DNA from: a virus
Taxonomy: Duplodnaviria; Heunggongvirae; Uroviricota; Caudoviricetes
Length of the DNA stretch: 22,219 bases
IMG/VR virus record: IMGVR_UViG_2029527006_000005
Reading direction: 5' to 3' (one strand)
Shown here: piece after piece, positions 2,821-19,611 of the stretch
Numbering within the stretch: position 1 is the first letter of the stretch
Layout: each line of letters opens with the position of its first letter
Made by a program: the position numbers and the translations under genes
Notes under the pieces: model-generated
Told to the model about the DNA's origin: nothing
The model's database searches: none
Seen by the model: only the letters and a program-made list of their open reading frames with translations

Positions 2821-3246
2821 TTAGATAAACATTTCTGAACAGCGAGAATTACGGTCATACACTTCCTGATCTGTCTCGTCAAAGAAAACACCAGATAAGC
2901 ATTCCGAAATAAATTCACGTGCTTCTACTTTAGTCGCGAAGATGCGGTTCAGGTTGTACTTACCGTGTGTAGTATTGATACCACAGTCATGAATACTACA
3001 ACCACTACGCCATGACTGACCATTCTGACTGATGCGAATCACATCAAAGAACAGTGAATCAGTACGGGAATTTGTTGAATAGTGCCAGTTCTTTGGGAAT
3101 GAAGTAACGATCATCTTTTGGATATTTGCATCCAGATCAATATTGTCTTTATTACCTTTAGAAACCGATTTAACAATACTTGAACCGTATACGTGATAAA
3201 CGATTTTACCCGGAGCAATACCTTTGGTAGTGTTGATAGCAGCCAT
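2821..3246 (-). CDS. hypothetical protein, first gene of an early operon
   Basis: 141-aa ORF with AGAGGA RBS, downstream of the promoter at 3293-3321. Confidence 0.8.
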   Translation of the reverse strand: MAAINTTKGIAPGKIVYHVYGSSIVKSVSKGNKDNIDLDANIQKMIVTSFPKNWHYSTNSRTDSLFFDVIRISQNGQSWRSGCSIHDCGINTTHGKYNLNRIFATKVEAREFISECLSGVFFDETDQEVYDRNSRCSEMFI

Positions 3247-3292
3247 GTTTGATTCCTCTTAATGTGTTAGTGTATGTCGTTTCGATATAGAT

Positions 3293-3328
3293 ATAATAAC
3301 AAAAGGGCTGACTCTCGTCAACCCTTTT
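3293..3328 (-). promoter_or_regulatory. sigma70 promoter overlapping an intrinsic-terminator hairpin
   Basis: TTGACG-17-TATTAT; the -35 is the 5' arm of the hairpin AAAAGGGTTGAC-GAGA-GTCAGCCCTTTT. Confidence 0.8.
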
Positions 3329-4511: not shown

Positions 4512-4542
4512 TTAATTAATCCTCTTTGTTTGCGATGAAGTA

Positions 4543-4578
4543 ATTATAGCAAAAAGGGCTGACCGAAGTCAACCCTTT
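4543..4578 (-). promoter_or_regulatory. sigma70 promoter overlapping a terminator hairpin; near-copy of 3293-3328
   Basis: TTGACT-18-TATAAT; hairpin AAAGGGTTGAC-TTCG-GTCAGCCCTTT with UUCG loop and U-tract. Confidence 0.8.
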
Positions 4579-4581
4579 ATT

Positions 4582-4911
4582 TTAAATCTTCTTACACACC
4601 ACAGCAGCGGTTTTCACATCATTAACTGGTATTGCGTTTGTTGCATACTCACCATTGAATTCAACGAAATGATACACGCGAATTCCTAAGAAAGTACTGC
4701 TAGTTAGTTTCAACTTCTGTAGTTCTGATTCGAACACAACCTTTGAACCAGCAAGAGGCTTGTCATCTTGTGTTGCACCGACCATATAGCAATTGTACTG
4801 CTGGTCAACCACTTTGTTAATCACAACATCAATTGCTGGTTTAGCTAAGAATGCCAACCAAAACCCAACCGCTGTTAGTACTAATACTACACAGAAATCT
4901 TTGAAGCTCAT
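4582..4911 (-). CDS. membrane-anchored protein, N-terminal TM and two Cys; probable paralog of 3338-3655
   Basis: Hydrophobic N-terminus, YNC motif, C-terminal TAAVVCK. Confidence 0.75.
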   Translation of the reverse strand: MSFKDFCVVLVLTAVGFWLAFLAKPAIDVVINKVVDQQYNCYMVGATQDDKPLAGSKVVFESELQKLKLTSSTFLGIRVYHFVEFNGEYATNAIPVNDVKTAAVVCKKI

Positions 4912-5876
4912 TGAATACCCCGTTCGTTCATATGTTTACGTATACGTGATACTACATCATTATAGCAACGATGTAAAGAGGTACGTGAATTATATTTACG
5001 TCCCTTTGGATCGGTATAAGTAAACCCTTCTGCGGCTAGAGTCCAGAATGACTTCTCATCGTCCTTATTCAAGCCGTGAACCGCTTCTACCAACGCCCGG
5101 TCATCAGGGGTTAGGTCATGGAAAATAACCTCTAGTAGCTCGTTCATGGTGCTTTCATCAGTAACTAGACCCGGATCAAGGTGGAAGTCTGAACTCTCAC
5201 CCTTGATTACGTCTTGGAGCATTACGGAACCATCTTCGTTCACAGGTGTATCAAGACTGATTGCATTGTTTGTATACTTCATAACACGATTCACTGATAC
5301 AATATCAATACCAGTACCTTCAGCAATTTGATCATTGGTTGGGTTGCGACCATTAGTACTAATGTAACGCTCAATGAAGTTCTGAATCGTTACGTTGTTC
5401 ACGGATTGGTACTTAGGTAGTGCAACCATACGTGCTTCTTCGTTGCCGTAGTTGTACATGGTCTGACGAATAGCTGTCGTTGCATAAGTACTGAAGGATG
5501 CCTTTTGTGTAGTGTCAAAGCGACGGATAGCATGGATCAATCCTTCGAAACCGTATTGTACTTTATCTTGGAATTGAATGTTACACGTGCACTTACGTGC
5601 TACTGCGTAAACTAAACCACTGTTACAACGTACAATCAAATCCATGTTCTTAGCTACATCAATACCTGCATTGATGCGGTCAATTAGGATCTCATTGGTC
5701 AACCCTTCTGGTAGACGTTCTTTAGTATTGTACGCTTCAGATGTAACAATACTTGCAATCTCTTCTTCAACTTCGTCATCACTGTTATGCAAGATGGCAT
5801 TAACTGTTTTGTTCTCGTTTTGGAAACACTCGTCTAGTACTTCATCGTGGATTGATTCTAGATTTAGTTTTTTCAC
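4908..5876 (-). CDS. sigma70-family RNA polymerase sigma factor (RpoD/RpoS-like regions 2-3, divergent region 4)
   Basis: Region 2: NSGLVYAVARK...DKVQYGFEGLIHAIRRFD...FSTYATTAIRQ. Region 3: GRNPTNDQIAE...ISLDTPV. GTG start at 5876 after an AGGAG RBS. Confidence 0.9.
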   Translation of the reverse strand: MKKLNLESIHDEVLDECFQNENKTVNAILHNSDDEVEEEIASIVTSEAYNTKERLPEGLTNEILIDRINAGIDVAKNMDLIVRCNSGLVYAVARKCTCNIQFQDKVQYGFEGLIHAIRRFDTTQKASFSTYATTAIRQTMYNYGNEEARMVALPKYQSVNNVTIQNFIERYISTNGRNPTNDQIAEGTGIDIVSVNRVMKYTNNAISLDTPVNEDGSVMLQDVIKGESSDFHLDPGLVTDESTMNELLEVIFHDLTPDDRALVEAVHGLNKDDEKSFWTLAAEGFTYTDPKGRKYNSRTSLHRCYNDVVSRIRKHMNERGIQ

Positions 5877-5894
5877 GCATACTCCTGAATTGAT

Positions 5895-5922
5895 AAAAAA
5901 TGCCAGTCTTCGTAACTGGCAT
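5895..5922 (-). terminator. intrinsic terminator upstream of the sigma gene
   Basis: ATGCCAGT-TACGAAG-ACTGGCAT followed by a T-run on the minus strand. Confidence 0.75.
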
Positions 5923-5924
5923 CT

Positions 5925-5953
5925 ATAATACATAATATTTTTCTTTATAGCAA
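5925..5953 (-). promoter_or_regulatory. putative sigma70 promoter for the phage sigma gene
   Basis: TTGCTA-17-TATTAT; the predicted +1 falls inside the 5' arm of the terminator. Confidence 0.55.
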
Positions 5954-12861: not shown

Positions 12862-12899
12862 TTATTATATCACATAAATCGTGATTTGTCTCAAGATTT
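12862..12899 (-). promoter_or_regulatory. extended -10 promoter with ATCAC-N7-GTGAT dyad; near-copy of 19572-19609
   Basis: GAGACA-17-TATAAT with TGn. Confidence 0.75.
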
Positions 12900-13220
12900 T
12901 TTCATCTCTTGAAAAATATAATGTACATTCGCTAGGTCATTGAGGGTGAAGCCAAAATCCTGTGTGTACATAAGGGTGTGGTAAAAGTAATGGGATGGGT
13001 GTTCTACTTCCTCTTCACGGATGTAGATTCCAAATTCAGTACAAGCAAATTGAATGCTATCTCTTCCATTTTCTTTAGAAAAGAATAGTAGTACTTGGTC
13101 GAACGAACTAGGATCAAACTTTAAACGATATGATGTAGTACCTACTTTGTACTCTTTACCGTTCTTGAACTCTGATAAACCTTGGACGTAATTATTCACT
13201 GTCTGTGTTATCTTCTGCAT
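12891..13220 (-). CDS. hypothetical protein, possible divergent member of the EEEYFQ family
   Basis: Start moved to ATG 13220 (MQKITQ..., GAAGG RBS); SHYFYHTLMYTQDFGFTLNDL only weakly matches the family motif. Confidence 0.7.
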   Translation of the reverse strand: MQKITQTVNNYVQGLSEFKNGKEYKVGTTSYRLKFDPSSFDQVLLFFSKENGRDSIQFACTEFGIYIREEEVEHPSHYFYHTLMYTQDFGFTLNDLANVHYIFQEMKKS

Positions 13221-19187: not shown

Positions 19188-19200
19188 AAAATTTCCTCAA

Positions 19201-19226
19201 AAGAAAAGGAAGCTAATCGCTTCCTT
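19201..19226 (-). terminator. intrinsic terminator after tRNA-Leu
   Basis: AAGGAAGC-GATTA-GCTTCCTT-TTCTT. Confidence 0.8.
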
Positions 19227-19230
19227 GTTG

Positions 19231-19316
19231 TGGTCGGGGTAGTGGGATTCGAACCCACATCCATTTAAGGGAGGCATTTTAAGTGCCTTGCGTATTTCCA
19301 GTTTCGCCATACCCCG
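19231..19316 (-). tRNA. tRNA-Leu (anticodon UAA), CCA encoded
   Basis: Acceptor stem CGGGGTA/TACCCCG, anticodon arm AGGCA-CTTAAAA-TGCCT, long variable region, T arm GTGGG-TTCGAAT-CCCAC, ACCA end. Confidence 0.95.
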
Positions 19317-19319
19317 TTA

Positions 19320-19567
19320 GCTGGAATCCATTTTTTTGTCATATAAGCCGATGAGTTTAATTGCTGTTGGATTCCAAATTGTGTTGTTGAGGTGGTGTTT
19401 TAATCCACGCTGACAGGTGACCTTATCGTTATTACCTGCGGCTCTCCCTTAAGCTACTCAACGGAAATTTATCAGAACGGTTCTTCAAGCCTCTACTACA
19501 TGTGCCTATTGCCGTCGCTCAACACACCCTTCGCTTTCTTCGGTTGCGATAACCTTTCCCGTCTGAT
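19320..19567 (-). ncRNA. candidate structured ncRNA / tRNA-precursor leader with three domains, including a degenerate tRNA-like cloverleaf (19384-19463)
   Basis: No listed ORF; predicted +1 (19567) coincides with the first stem ATCAGACGG/CCGTTCTGAT; cloverleaf-order stems; perfect 9-bp stem TGGAATCCA/TGGATTCCA. Confidence 0.6.
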
Positions 19568-19571
19568 AATT

Positions 19572-19609
19572 ATATTATATCACATTTTCAATGATTTGTC
19601 CCAAGAATT
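19572..19609 (-). promoter_or_regulatory. extended -10 promoter for the ncRNA-tRNA unit; near-copy of 12862-12899
   Basis: GGGACA-17-TATAAT with TGn. Confidence 0.75.
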
Positions 19610-19611
19610 TT

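What the first reader, a model, noticed from the sequence alone, without database searches (positions are those of the whole stretch)
19320..19567. Undescribed ~250-nt three-domain structured RNA ahead of tRNA-Leu
Seen, on the minus strand from the predicted +1 at 19567. Domain 1 (19471-19567) is closed by ATCAGACGG/CCGTTCTGAT, with inner hairpins TCGC/GCGA and GTG-TGTTG/CAATA-GG-CAC. Domain 2 (19384-19463) is a cloverleaf. Domain 3 (19322-19376) is closed by a perfect TGGAATCCA/TGGATTCCA stem around TCAT/ATGA. tRNA-Leu and a terminator follow. An alternative pairing, GACGGGAA..TTATC with GATAA..TTTCCGTT, competes with the cloverleaf acceptor stem, hinting at a switch. This is the largest gene-free gap in an otherwise dense window. 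Established: large structured ncRNAs such as GOLLD occur beside phage tRNAs. Inference: a new phage ncRNA, released by tRNA processing, possibly acting in translation control or anti-defence.
Basis: partly seen in the sequence, partly recalled or inferred. Interest (0 to 1): 0.8.

Follow-up and report, generated by a model that had tools for sequence, protein, structure and literature searches.

The report
Three separate RNAs before tRNA-Leu
The 250 bases ahead of a giant phage's leucine tRNA gene are not one large RNA but three independent, conserved small structured RNAs strung in one transcript with the tRNA: an unclassified four-helix RNA, a tRNA look-alike, and a hairpin "handle" of a type found only in phages that encode a Ro60-like RNA-binding protein.

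Summary
No Rfam family matches except tRNA-Leu. The "three-domain RNA" does not hold, because the three parts occur separately elsewhere.

- **D1 (19471-19567)** is a four-helix RNA. It stands alone behind its own promoter in K64-1, sits directly before tRNA-Leu in RaK2, and follows tRNA-Ser in Erwinia phage Kaldavass.
- **D2 (19386-19462)** is a tRNA-shaped RNA with a 15-nt loop and an altered T loop. It stands alone in K64-1 and is nearly invariant in environmental relatives.
- **D3 (19322-19376)** belongs to a repeated, strand-specific hairpin family (stem followed by ACAGCAA) packed against tRNA genes. I found 4-9 copies in all 11 relatives that encode a DUF2828/DUF7788 protein, which I modelled as Ro60-like. 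I found 0-1 copies in all 6 relatives without that protein. Longer family members carry permuted tRNA-like modules, as YrlA does.

The proposed switch is not conserved.

Best reading: a promoter-to-terminator small-RNA/tRNA operon, cut by tRNA-processing enzymes into separate stable RNAs. The closest parallel is T4 RNAC/RNAD. This scan had already noted handle RNAs beside a Ro60-like gene in Felix O1-type phages. Transcription, processing and function remain untested.

The parts
19574..19602 (-). Early-type sigma70 promoter (GGGACA, 17-nt spacer, TG-extended TATAAT). The predicted start lies near 19567.
   Evidence: A near-identical 39-nt copy lies at 12863-12901. The same promoter type precedes D1 or D2 in 7t3, K64-1, RaK2, Munch and fENko-Kae01.
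19471..19567 (-). D1, a 97-nt four-helix RNA. P1 pairs 19559-19567 with 19471-19480. P2 pairs 19551-19554 with 19542-19545. P4 pairs 19533-19536 with 19487-19490. P3 pairs 19522-19527 with 19500-19505 and carries a 16-nt loop. Purine-rich junction strands are conserved and contain AGUA opposite GAA.
   Evidence: RNAalifold and per-pair tables on 5-7 homologues. Covariance model R2 finds it in 7t3, the UViG relative, K64-1 (two copies), RaK2 and Kaldavass. No Rfam match.
19386..19462 (-). D2, a 77-nt tRNA-shaped RNA. The acceptor stem pairs 19457-19462 with 19386-19391. The D arm is 19441-19454. The anticodon-like arm is 19413-19439 with a 15-nt loop at 19419-19433. The T-like arm is 19392-19408, with 4 bp and a 9-nt loop.
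   Evidence: The cloverleaf is the minimum-energy fold of the trimmed module in both the window and K64-1. The acceptor stem covaries. ARAGORN and Rfam tRNA do not call it. Model R1 weakly hits true tRNAs at 15-22 bits. It is nearly invariant in relatives from four sequencing runs.
19322..19376 (-). D3, a 55-nt hairpin handle. The 5' arm UGGAAUCCA (19368-19376) is followed directly by ACAGCAA (19361-19367). A 37-nt loop follows. The 3' arm UGGAUUCCA is at 19322-19330 and ends 5 nt before tRNA-Leu.
   Evidence: It belongs to a repeated family that co-occurs with a Ro60-like protein.
19231..19316 (-). tRNA-Leu (anticodon UAA) with encoded CCA.
   Evidence: ARAGORN. Rfam tRNA, 54.4 bits.
19206..19226 (-). 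Intrinsic terminator: an 8-bp stem followed by a T run.

Best explanation
The gap is a non-coding small-RNA/tRNA operon of a RaK2-like jumbo phage. One early promoter drives a transcript of about 360 nt that ends at the terminator after tRNA-Leu.

**Layout (shown).** The 250 nt ahead of the tRNA are three autonomous modules, not domains of one RNA.

**Processing (inferred).** RNase P cuts at the 5' sides of D2 and of tRNA-Leu. Host 3'-end processing separates the pieces, much as T4 RNAC and RNAD are made from its tRNA cluster.

**The pieces:**
- **D1** is a previously unclassified four-helix RNA. Its conserved three-way junction and its internal loop (AGUA opposite GAA) look like a protein-binding or tertiary-contact site.
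- **D2** is a tRNA mimic. It keeps the acceptor, D and anticodon-like stems. Its anticodon loop is replaced by an invariant 15-nt loop, and its T loop is altered. Most likely it engages a tRNA-binding factor as a decoy or adaptor rather than decoding.
- **D3** is the minimal, handle-only member of a phage Y-RNA-like family: a stem made from the two ends, then ACAGCAA. Its likely partner is the phage's Ro60-like protein (DUF2828/DUF7788). Longer members carry a permuted tRNA-like body on the same handle.
For: **The modules are separable**
- BLAST with each module alone finds it at different loci in different phages.
- K64-1 has D1 alone with its own promoter and a T run, and D2 alone next to an ORF.
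- Munch and fENko-Kae01 have D2, D3 and tRNA-Leu with the D1 core deleted.
- CBB and GAP32 have D3-type hairpins only.
- RaK2 lacks a cassette of about 485 nt that holds an ORF plus D2.

**Structure is under selection**
- D1 pair tables.
- D2.
- D3.
- In four sequencing runs, D2 shows 0-1 differences where D1 shows 13-17.

**Position relative to tRNAs**
- D1 directly follows tRNA-Ser in Kaldavass and precedes tRNA-Leu in RaK2 and in the second K64-1 copy.
- D3-type hairpins start 0-2 nt after tRNA 3' ends.
- They end exactly 5 nt before tRNA 5' ends in five cases.

**D3 and the Ro60-like protein**
- The motif has 4-9 clustered, same-strand copies in all 11 relatives that encode a homologue of Felix O1 ORF42.
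- It has 0-1 mismatched copies in all 6 relatives without that homologue.
- The protein models with pLDDT 84. Its 13 best PDB matches are all Ro60/TROVE proteins (E about 1e-8, TM about 0.58, full length).
- Felix O1 RNAs next to that gene show the same design of a stem followed by UACAGCAA.
- A long family member in GAP32 hits Rfam YrlA at 44.7 bits. It folds as a stem with a T arm, a closed acceptor stem and a D arm.

**Analogue**
- T4 RNAC and RNAD lie in the T4 tRNA cluster, are confirmed by Northern blot, and have no known function (PMC3014915; PMC9697503).
Against: - I have no direct evidence of transcription, ends or processing. The only RNA-library signal is one metatranscriptome contig from a relative, and that could be DNA.
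- D2's T loop lacks the G53-C61 pair and C56, so recognition by RNase P is uncertain.
- The window's own genome is not held, so I could not show that this phage encodes the Ro60-like protein.
- The co-occurrence of the D3 motif with the protein rests on about 4 lineages with it against about 3 without. These are not 17 independent events.
- D3's loop is itself conserved between distant phages. Some D3-type copies score as weak promoter-like sites, so a DNA-level role is not excluded.
- The alignments hold few sequences: 6 for D2 and 7 for D1, or 3-5 lineages.
- No function has been shown for D1 or D2.
Confidence: 0.6

Rival explanations
1. One reading: one ~250-nt three-domain RNA. Its domains work together, and an alternative pairing between D1 and the D1-D2 linker acts as a switch.
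For: - The three parts are contiguous and in the same order in the window, in 7t3/SE_PL and in the UViG relative.
- Sequencing contigs from relatives also cover them in this order.
- In the window the alternative duplex is predicted at -12.2 kcal/mol.
Against: - Each part occurs without the others elsewhere.
- The distributions across phages differ. D3-type hairpins track the Ro60-like protein, while D1 and D2 do not.
- The alternative duplex is absent from 7t3 and the UViG relative.
- The linker is retained where D1 is deleted.
- The whole region is no more stable than shuffled sequence.
Confidence: 0.07
2. D1, or the whole leader, is a cis-acting regulatory element such as a riboswitch or attenuator. 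It would control read-through into D2 and tRNA-Leu.
For: - D1 begins at the predicted transcript start.
- It has a three-way junction with conserved junction bases, as many aptamers do.
- In K64-1 copy A, the closing stem is followed by a run of six T residues.
Against: - There is no conserved expression platform. The window, 7t3 and Kaldavass have no T run after P1.
- In Kaldavass, D1 lies inside a tRNA cluster, directly after a tRNA 3' end, not at a 5' end.
- No Rfam riboswitch matches.
- tRNA genes are not known riboswitch targets (general knowledge).
Confidence: 0.1
3. The modules are mainly DNA-level or relic features. D2 would be a decaying tRNA pseudogene. D3-type inverted repeats would be promoter, terminator or recombination cassettes, like the PeSLs of T4-type phages, that shuffle tRNA-region cassettes.
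For: - Modules are shuffled between phages like cassettes.
- Three D3-type copies in CBB score 9 of 12 as promoter-like sites.
- PeSLs combine promoters with stem-loops and mediate modular shuffling (PMC2839356).
- Model R1 scores real tRNAs weakly, so D2 derives from a tRNA.
Against: - D2 is the best conserved part of the locus, including its odd loop. It is 95% identical between the window and K64-1 while the flanks are unrelated, and it has 0-1 differences in environmental relatives. That is the opposite of decay.
- Its acceptor stem keeps pairing through four double changes.
- The D3 arms covary to keep pairing.
- D3-type copies are confined to the tRNA region, lie on one strand, and are flush with tRNA ends.
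- The window's D3 is not flagged as promoter-like.
- Promoter-like sites in the CBB tRNA region are no more frequent than in shuffled sequence.
Confidence: 0.15
4. The gap encodes one or more small proteins.
For: 7t3 annotates a 65-aa CDS antisense to D1. The window has ORFs of 20-49 aa.
Against: - The window's ORF and the 7t3 CDS show no similarity.
- Single-base indels separate the window and 7t3 within D1.
- The substitution pattern is compensatory in stems.
Confidence: 0.02

Closest known systems
T4 RNAC and RNAD (species 1 and 2 small stable RNAs of the T4 tRNA cluster)
   Same: - Small non-tRNA RNAs lie in the same transcription unit as phage tRNAs, flush against a tRNA gene.
- RNAC carries a tRNA-type T arm.
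- Their function is still unknown (PMC3014915, PMC9697503).
   Different: - There is no detectable sequence or structure homology. Models R1 and R2 do not hit rnaC or rnaD.
- The T4 RNAs lie downstream of the last tRNA. Here the modules lie upstream of it.
- T4 has no D3-type handle motif in the region examined.
YrlA / bacterial Y RNAs bound by Ro60 (Rsr); Rfam RF02553; Chen et al. 2014, PMC4201824
   Same: - D3-type RNAs have a stem formed by the 5' and 3' ends.
- Longer family members insert a permuted tRNA-like body (T arm, loop-closed acceptor stem, D arm), exactly as YrlA does.
- A Ro60-fold protein is encoded by the same phages.
   Different: - D3 itself has no tRNA-like body and gives no YrlA hit.
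- The Rsr-binding GNCGAA(N)G motif is absent. The conserved motif here is ACAGCAA after the 5' arm.
- The protein is DUF2828/DUF7788, is not detected by Pfam TROVE, and lies about 100-200 kb from the RNAs rather than adjacent.
Handle RNAs next to the Ro60-like gene of Felix O1-type phages
   Same: - The design is the same: a terminal stem immediately followed by (U/A)ACAGCAA, with either a short loop or a permuted tRNA body, inside the tRNA cluster.
- The partner protein family is homologous, at 40-44% identity.
   Different: - The stem sequence differs: AGACC... in Felix O1 against GGAAUC... here.
- In Felix O1 the protein gene directly precedes the RNAs. In the jumbo phages it is distant.
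- Binding has been shown in neither case.
Canonical tRNA (Rfam RF00005), compared with D2
   Same: - Four-arm cloverleaf.
- D arm of tRNA type (UAGCU..GGGAGAGC).
- 4-nt variable region.
- Model R1 cross-hits real tRNAs.
   Different: - The loop is 15 nt (17 nt beyond the G-C pair) instead of a 7-nt anticodon loop.
- The T loop is AUUAAAACA, without the G53-C61 pair or C56.
- The acceptor stem has 6 bp.
- No CCA is encoded.
- ARAGORN and RF00005 do not call it.
PeSL cassettes of T4-type phages (Arbiol et al. 2010, PMC2839356)
   Same: Repeated intergenic elements containing a stem-loop, at the borders of shuffled cassettes in a plastic early region.
   Different: - PeSLs are strong sigma70 promoters with G/C-rich terminator hairpins upstream of ORFs.
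- D3-type elements have at best weak promoter-like matches.
- They have long loops, abut tRNAs, and track a Ro60-like protein.

Membership tests
tRNA (for D2) | Cloverleaf with acceptor, D, anticodon and T stems | tested here: met
   The cloverleaf is the minimum-energy fold of the trimmed module in the window and in K64-1. 98% of cells are paired across 6 sequences, and the acceptor stem covaries.
tRNA (for D2) | 7-nt anticodon loop with U33 and a purine at position 37 | tested here: not met
   The loop is 15 nt and invariant except at one position.
tRNA (for D2) | Canonical T arm (5 bp with G53-C61, loop UUCRANY) | tested here: not met
   The stem is 4 bp and the loop is 9 nt, AUUAAAACA or AUUUAAACA.
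tRNA (for D2) | Detected by ARAGORN or Rfam RF00005 | tested here: not met
   ARAGORN fails at default and relaxed thresholds and in intron mode. cmscan at E<=10 gives no tRNA hit there.
YrlA / Y RNA (for D3) | Match to Rfam RF02553 at the gathering score | tested here: not met
   No hit in the window at E<=10. The best family relative, in GAP32, scores 44.7 bits against a gathering score of 69.
YrlA / Y RNA (for D3) | GNCGAA(N)G Ro60-binding motif in the 5' strand of the terminal stem (PMC4201824) | tested here: not met
   The 5' strand reads UGGAAUCCA followed by ACAGCAA.
YrlA / Y RNA (for D3) | tRNA-like domain (T arm, acceptor-like stem, D arm) inside the stem | tested here: not met
   D3's 37-nt loop has none. 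It is present in the longer members in CBB and GAP32.
YrlA / Y RNA (for D3) | A Ro60 orthologue encoded by the same genome | tested here: inconclusive
   Pfam TROVE is absent from 5 relatives. A Ro60-fold DUF2828/DUF7788 protein is present in 11 relatives. The window's own genome is not held.
Phage handle (Y-like) RNA family linked to DUF2828/DUF7788 (for D3) | Terminal stem from the two ends, immediately followed by ACAGCAA on the 5' side | tested here: met
   Felix O1 shows the same design.
Phage handle (Y-like) RNA family linked to DUF2828/DUF7788 (for D3) | Several same-strand copies clustered in the tRNA region of genomes that encode the protein | tested here: met
   4-9 copies in all 11 genomes with the protein. 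0-1 mismatched copies in all 6 without it. The window itself holds one copy.
Phage handle (Y-like) RNA family linked to DUF2828/DUF7788 (for D3) | Physical binding of the RNA by the protein | not testable with these tools
   Needs pull-down or gel-shift experiments.
T4 RNAC/RNAD-type stable RNAs | Lies in a tRNA transcription unit and abuts tRNA genes | tested here: met
   Promoter, modules, tRNA-Leu and terminator in the window. D1 abuts tRNAs in RaK2, K64-1 and Kaldavass.
T4 RNAC/RNAD-type stable RNAs | Sequence or structure homology to rnaC or rnaD | tested here: not met
   Models R1 and R2, with filters off, do not hit T4 positions 70908-71171.
T4 RNAC/RNAD-type stable RNAs | Accumulates as a stable processed RNA in infected cells | not testable with these tools
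   Only assembled contigs were available. One metatranscriptome contig from a relative covers 19335-19544.
PeSL (for D3) | Strong sigma70 promoter combined with a short terminator hairpin | tested here: not met
   The window's D3 is not among the promoter-like sites. Three CBB copies score only 9 of 12, and there is no excess over shuffles. The stem encloses a 33-120-nt loop.
Riboswitch (for D1) | Known aptamer family, or a conserved expression platform | tested here: not met
   No Rfam match at E<=10. A T run follows P1 only in K64-1 copy A.

The most novel reading that the evidence does not exclude
The operon is an RNA toolkit for a phage Ro60-like particle and for conflict over tRNAs.
- D3-type handles load the DUF2828/DUF7788 ring. 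In one relative this gene sits beside an RNA ligase and a 2H-phosphoesterase-like gene.
- D2 is a dedicated decoy or adaptor tRNA. Its invariant 15-nt loop captures a host factor that targets tRNAs, either a defence nuclease or a modification enzyme.
- D1 is a new protein-binding RNA class.

Together these would be an undescribed RNA-based layer of counter-defence or RNA repair in jumbo phages.
Probability: 0.15. Interest if true: 0.85.

Novelty: new variant of a known kind. Interest (0 to 1): 0.6.

Why it matters
- Phage tRNA clusters have been known since T4 to hold small stable RNAs of unknown role. This locus adds two RNA families with covariation support and no Rfam entry: D1 and the D2 tRNA mimic.
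- It also ties a third element, D3, to a repeated handle family that co-occurs with a Ro60-fold protein across four lineages of jumbo phages.
- This gives concrete, testable candidates for Ro60/Y-RNA-type particles and for tRNA mimicry in phages that can be grown in the laboratory (7t3, Munch, fENko-Kae01, CBB, GAP32).
- It shows that such leaders are built from shuffled RNA modules. That matters for annotation, because several records place hypothetical proteins over them.

Tried and rejected
**Searches that found nothing useful**
- Rfam at the gathering score and at E<=10 gave nothing but tRNA-Leu.
- ARAGORN with relaxed scores, intron mode and tmRNA mode gave nothing for D1-D3.
- The window's own genome is not held.
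- Pfam TROVE was absent from five relatives. That was misleading, because the Ro60-like protein is DUF2828/DUF7788.
- A sequence search of the PDB with that protein gave no hit.
- IMG/VR pattern scans for D1 and D2 returned only the phages already known plus chance matches.
- Searches of the held paper library found nothing on these RNAs or on DUF2828 in phages.

**Ideas tested and dropped**
- Kissing pairs between the D1 P2 and P3 loops, and between the D2 and D3 loops, were checked by eye across homologues and are not conserved.
- D3 as a sigma70 promoter: only weak and inconsistent matches.
- Small ORFs were rejected.

**Sequencing runs**
- Only assembled contigs were available.
- They show relatives carrying D1, D2 and D3 in four studies, including one metatranscriptome contig.
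- They cannot show RNA ends, strand or expression level.

Full report
**Setting.** The window is part of a RaK2-like jumbo phage.
- A virion protein is 67% identical to those of Salmonella phages 7t3 and Munch and Klebsiella phage fENko-Kae01, and 38-51% identical to Asteriusvirus, Mimasvirus and Eneladusvirus phages.
- The window also encodes a sigma-70-family protein.
- The DNA is held by runs from an ant fungus-garden metagenome, its probable source.
- No whole genome is held for it.

**The observation.**
- Genes are densely packed on the minus strand. The 424-nt gap at 19188-19611 is the exception.
- The gap contains a TG-extended promoter at 19602-19574, tRNA-Leu(UAA) at 19231-19316 and a terminator at 19226-19206.
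- Rfam matches nothing there, even at E<=10. ARAGORN finds nothing under relaxed settings.
- There is no conserved ORF.
- Folding energy does not single the region out. The whole 251 nt gives z -0.23, so the case rests on comparison with relatives.

**The three parts are separable.**
- BLAST of the whole gap matched different parts in different phages.
- Searching each part alone made this explicit.
  - D1 is in 7t3/SE_PL and, at another locus, in K64-1-type phages and RaK2.
  - D2 is in 7t3, Munch, PHA46 and fENko-Kae01, and at yet another locus in K64-1-type phages.
  - D3 is in the 7t3 group and also in CBB and GAP32.
- Reading the loci confirms this.
  - K64-1 has D1 alone behind the same type of promoter, followed by a T run.
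  - K64-1 also has D2 alone behind another promoter, followed by an ORF.
  - RaK2 has a promoter, D1 and tRNA-Leu.
  - Munch and fENko-Kae01 keep the promoter, D2, D3 and tRNA-Leu, but only a short stub of D1's closing stem.
  - A 366-kb IMG/VR phage repeats the window's layout.
  - RaK2 differs from K64-1 by a cassette of about 485 nt that holds an ORF plus D2.

**D1 (19471-19567).**
- Covariance model R2 found D1 in 7t3, the IMG/VR phage, RaK2, twice in K64-1 (the second copy just before tRNA-Leu), and in Erwinia phage Kaldavass directly after tRNA-Ser.
- An anchored alignment gives four helices.
  - P1 is 9-11 bp in all seven sequences, with five unrelated sequence versions.
  - P2 is GGUN/NACC, or GGC/GCC in Kaldavass. 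K64-1 copy A and RaK2 carry a 28-nt insertion in its loop.
  - P3 has five different paired versions.
  - P4 (AAGC/GCUU) is nearly invariant.
- The junction strands are the most conserved part. They place AGUA opposite GAA, as in loop-E-type motifs. That resemblance comes from my own knowledge and was not tested.
- D1 is absent from Rfam and from T4.

**D2 (19386-19462).**
- Trimmed to its ends, the module's minimum-energy fold is a cloverleaf in both the window and K64-1.
- The K64-1 acceptor stem differs at four positions, all compensated.
- The remainder, including the 15-nt loop, is 93-95% identical between phages whose flanks are unrelated.
- In contigs from four other runs, D2 shows 0-1 differences where D1 shows 13-17.
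- Model R1 finds one copy per genome. It occurs only in the window's clade and in K64-1-type phages.
- R1 scores real tRNAs at 15-22 bits. D2 is therefore a tRNA derivative under strong selection, not a tRNA and not a decaying pseudogene.

**D3 (19322-19376).**
- The 5' arm plus ACAGCAA is a repeated, strand-specific motif confined to tRNA regions: 8 copies each in CBB and GAP32, and 4 each in 7t3 and the IMG/VR phage.
- Copies start 0-2 nt after tRNA 3' ends, end 5 nt before tRNA 5' ends, or precede ORFs.
- The arms covary: 95.6% of cells are paired, four pairs change on both sides, and no shuffle in 500 reached the observed value.
- Some copies enclose 84-120 nt that contain orphan T arms.
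  - One in GAP32 hits Rfam YrlA at 44.7 bits.
  - It folds as a stem with a T arm, a loop-closed acceptor stem and a D arm.
- Pfam TROVE is absent from these phages.

**Link to a Ro60-like protein.**
- Earlier notes of this scan pointed to a Ro60-shaped protein with handle RNAs in Felix O1-type phages. I tested that lead.
- Felix O1 ORF42 is annotated as an RNA-binding protein and matches Pfam DUF2828 plus DUF7788.
- It has homologues at 40-44% identity in 11 of 17 jumbo relatives.
- Those 11 are exactly the phages with 4-9 motif copies. The six without the protein have 0-1 mismatched copies.
- A model of the protein (pLDDT 84, pTM 0.80) has Ro60/TROVE proteins as all of its 13 best PDB matches. 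These include D. radiodurans Rsr and a Thermus phage Ro60.
- Felix O1 RNAs next to ORF42 have a terminal stem followed by UACAGCAA. One of them carries a T arm and a D arm.
- D3 is therefore best read as the minimal, handle-only member of a phage Y-like RNA family.
- Binding itself is inferred. The co-occurrence rests on about 4 lineages with the protein against about 3 without.

**The proposed switch.**
- The alternative duplex is predicted only in the window.
- Its 3' partner sequence is retained where D1 is missing.

**How it most likely works.**
- Shown: one promoter, three independently conserved structured modules, one tRNA and one terminator.
- Inferred: a single primary transcript is cut by RNase P at D2 and at tRNA-Leu, and by host 3'-processing enzymes, into separate RNAs. 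This would resemble T4 RNAC and RNAD (PMC3014915; PMC9697503).
- Inferred roles:
  - D3 is bound by the Ro60-like protein.
  - D2 acts as a tRNA mimic through its invariant loop.
  - D1 is a protein-binding RNA.
- Nothing here shows expression or phenotype.

**Verdict.**
- The novelty lies in D1 and D2 as unclassified RNA families, and in placing D3 in a family of handle RNAs linked to a Ro60-like protein.
- This scan had already met that family in Felix O1-type phages, on other DNA.

Noticed in passing
L014:5022-5152 (GAP32); L013:2908-3056, about 3150-3300 and about 4530-4650 (CBB); L014:3615-3760: CBB and GAP32 each carry several RNAs in which a permuted tRNA body sits on the D3-type stem. 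The body consists of a variable arm, a T arm, a loop-closed acceptor stem and a D arm. This is the YrlA architecture without the Rsr-binding motif. ARAGORN does not call them, and some lie under annotated hypothetical proteins.
   Followed up: partly
L013:1262-1380 (CBB), L014:1772-1894 (GAP32), and Kaldavass L037 (minus strand, downstream of D1): A tRNA with normal acceptor, D and T arms carries a 57-nt insert in place of the anticodon arm. It scores 47-50 bits against Rfam tRNA. The insert holds a hairpin with GUA in its loop, followed by the ...CAGCAACC handle motif. ARAGORN does not call it.
   Followed up: partly
L066:1336-2976 (IMG/VR relative); L067 (JGI contig 3300007747): A Ro60-fold DUF2828/DUF7788 protein is encoded in 11 jumbo relatives. 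In one metagenomic relative its neighbours are an RNA ligase (PF09414) and a weak 2H-phosphoesterase-like match, which looks like an RNA-repair neighbourhood.
   Followed up: partly
L035:2198-2295, equivalent to L038:1501-1598 (K64-1): K64-1 has a second D1 copy about 600 nt after the first, just before tRNA-Leu. It lacks the P2 insertion. The 3' half of RaK2's single D1 matches this second copy, which suggests recombination between copies.
   Followed up: no
window 12863-12901 and 19573-19611: Two near-identical 39-nt promoter elements are conserved through the spacer. The second one drives the RNA operon.
   Followed up: no
window 4908-5933 (minus strand): A phage-encoded sigma-70-family protein with regions 2 and 3 (PHROG 351).
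   Followed up: no
L001:2939-3751 (7t3) and L006:1799-2611 (Munch): An HNH nuclease gene sits immediately after tRNA-Leu in 7t3 and Munch. It is absent from the window and from fENko-Kae01. The tRNA-Leu sequences also differ strongly between the window and 7t3.
   Followed up: no
L001:2493-2690 (7t3_040); PHA46, CBB_461 and GAP32_440 records: Public records annotate hypothetical proteins over D1, D2 or D3-type elements. At least the 7t3 CDS antisense to D1 looks spurious.
   Followed up: partly
L015:156-207 and L016:140-200: In some D3-type copies the 3' arm (AAGGAUUC) lies 7-8 nt before an ORF start codon. It could double as a Shine-Dalgarno sequence that the hairpin sequesters.
   Followed up: no
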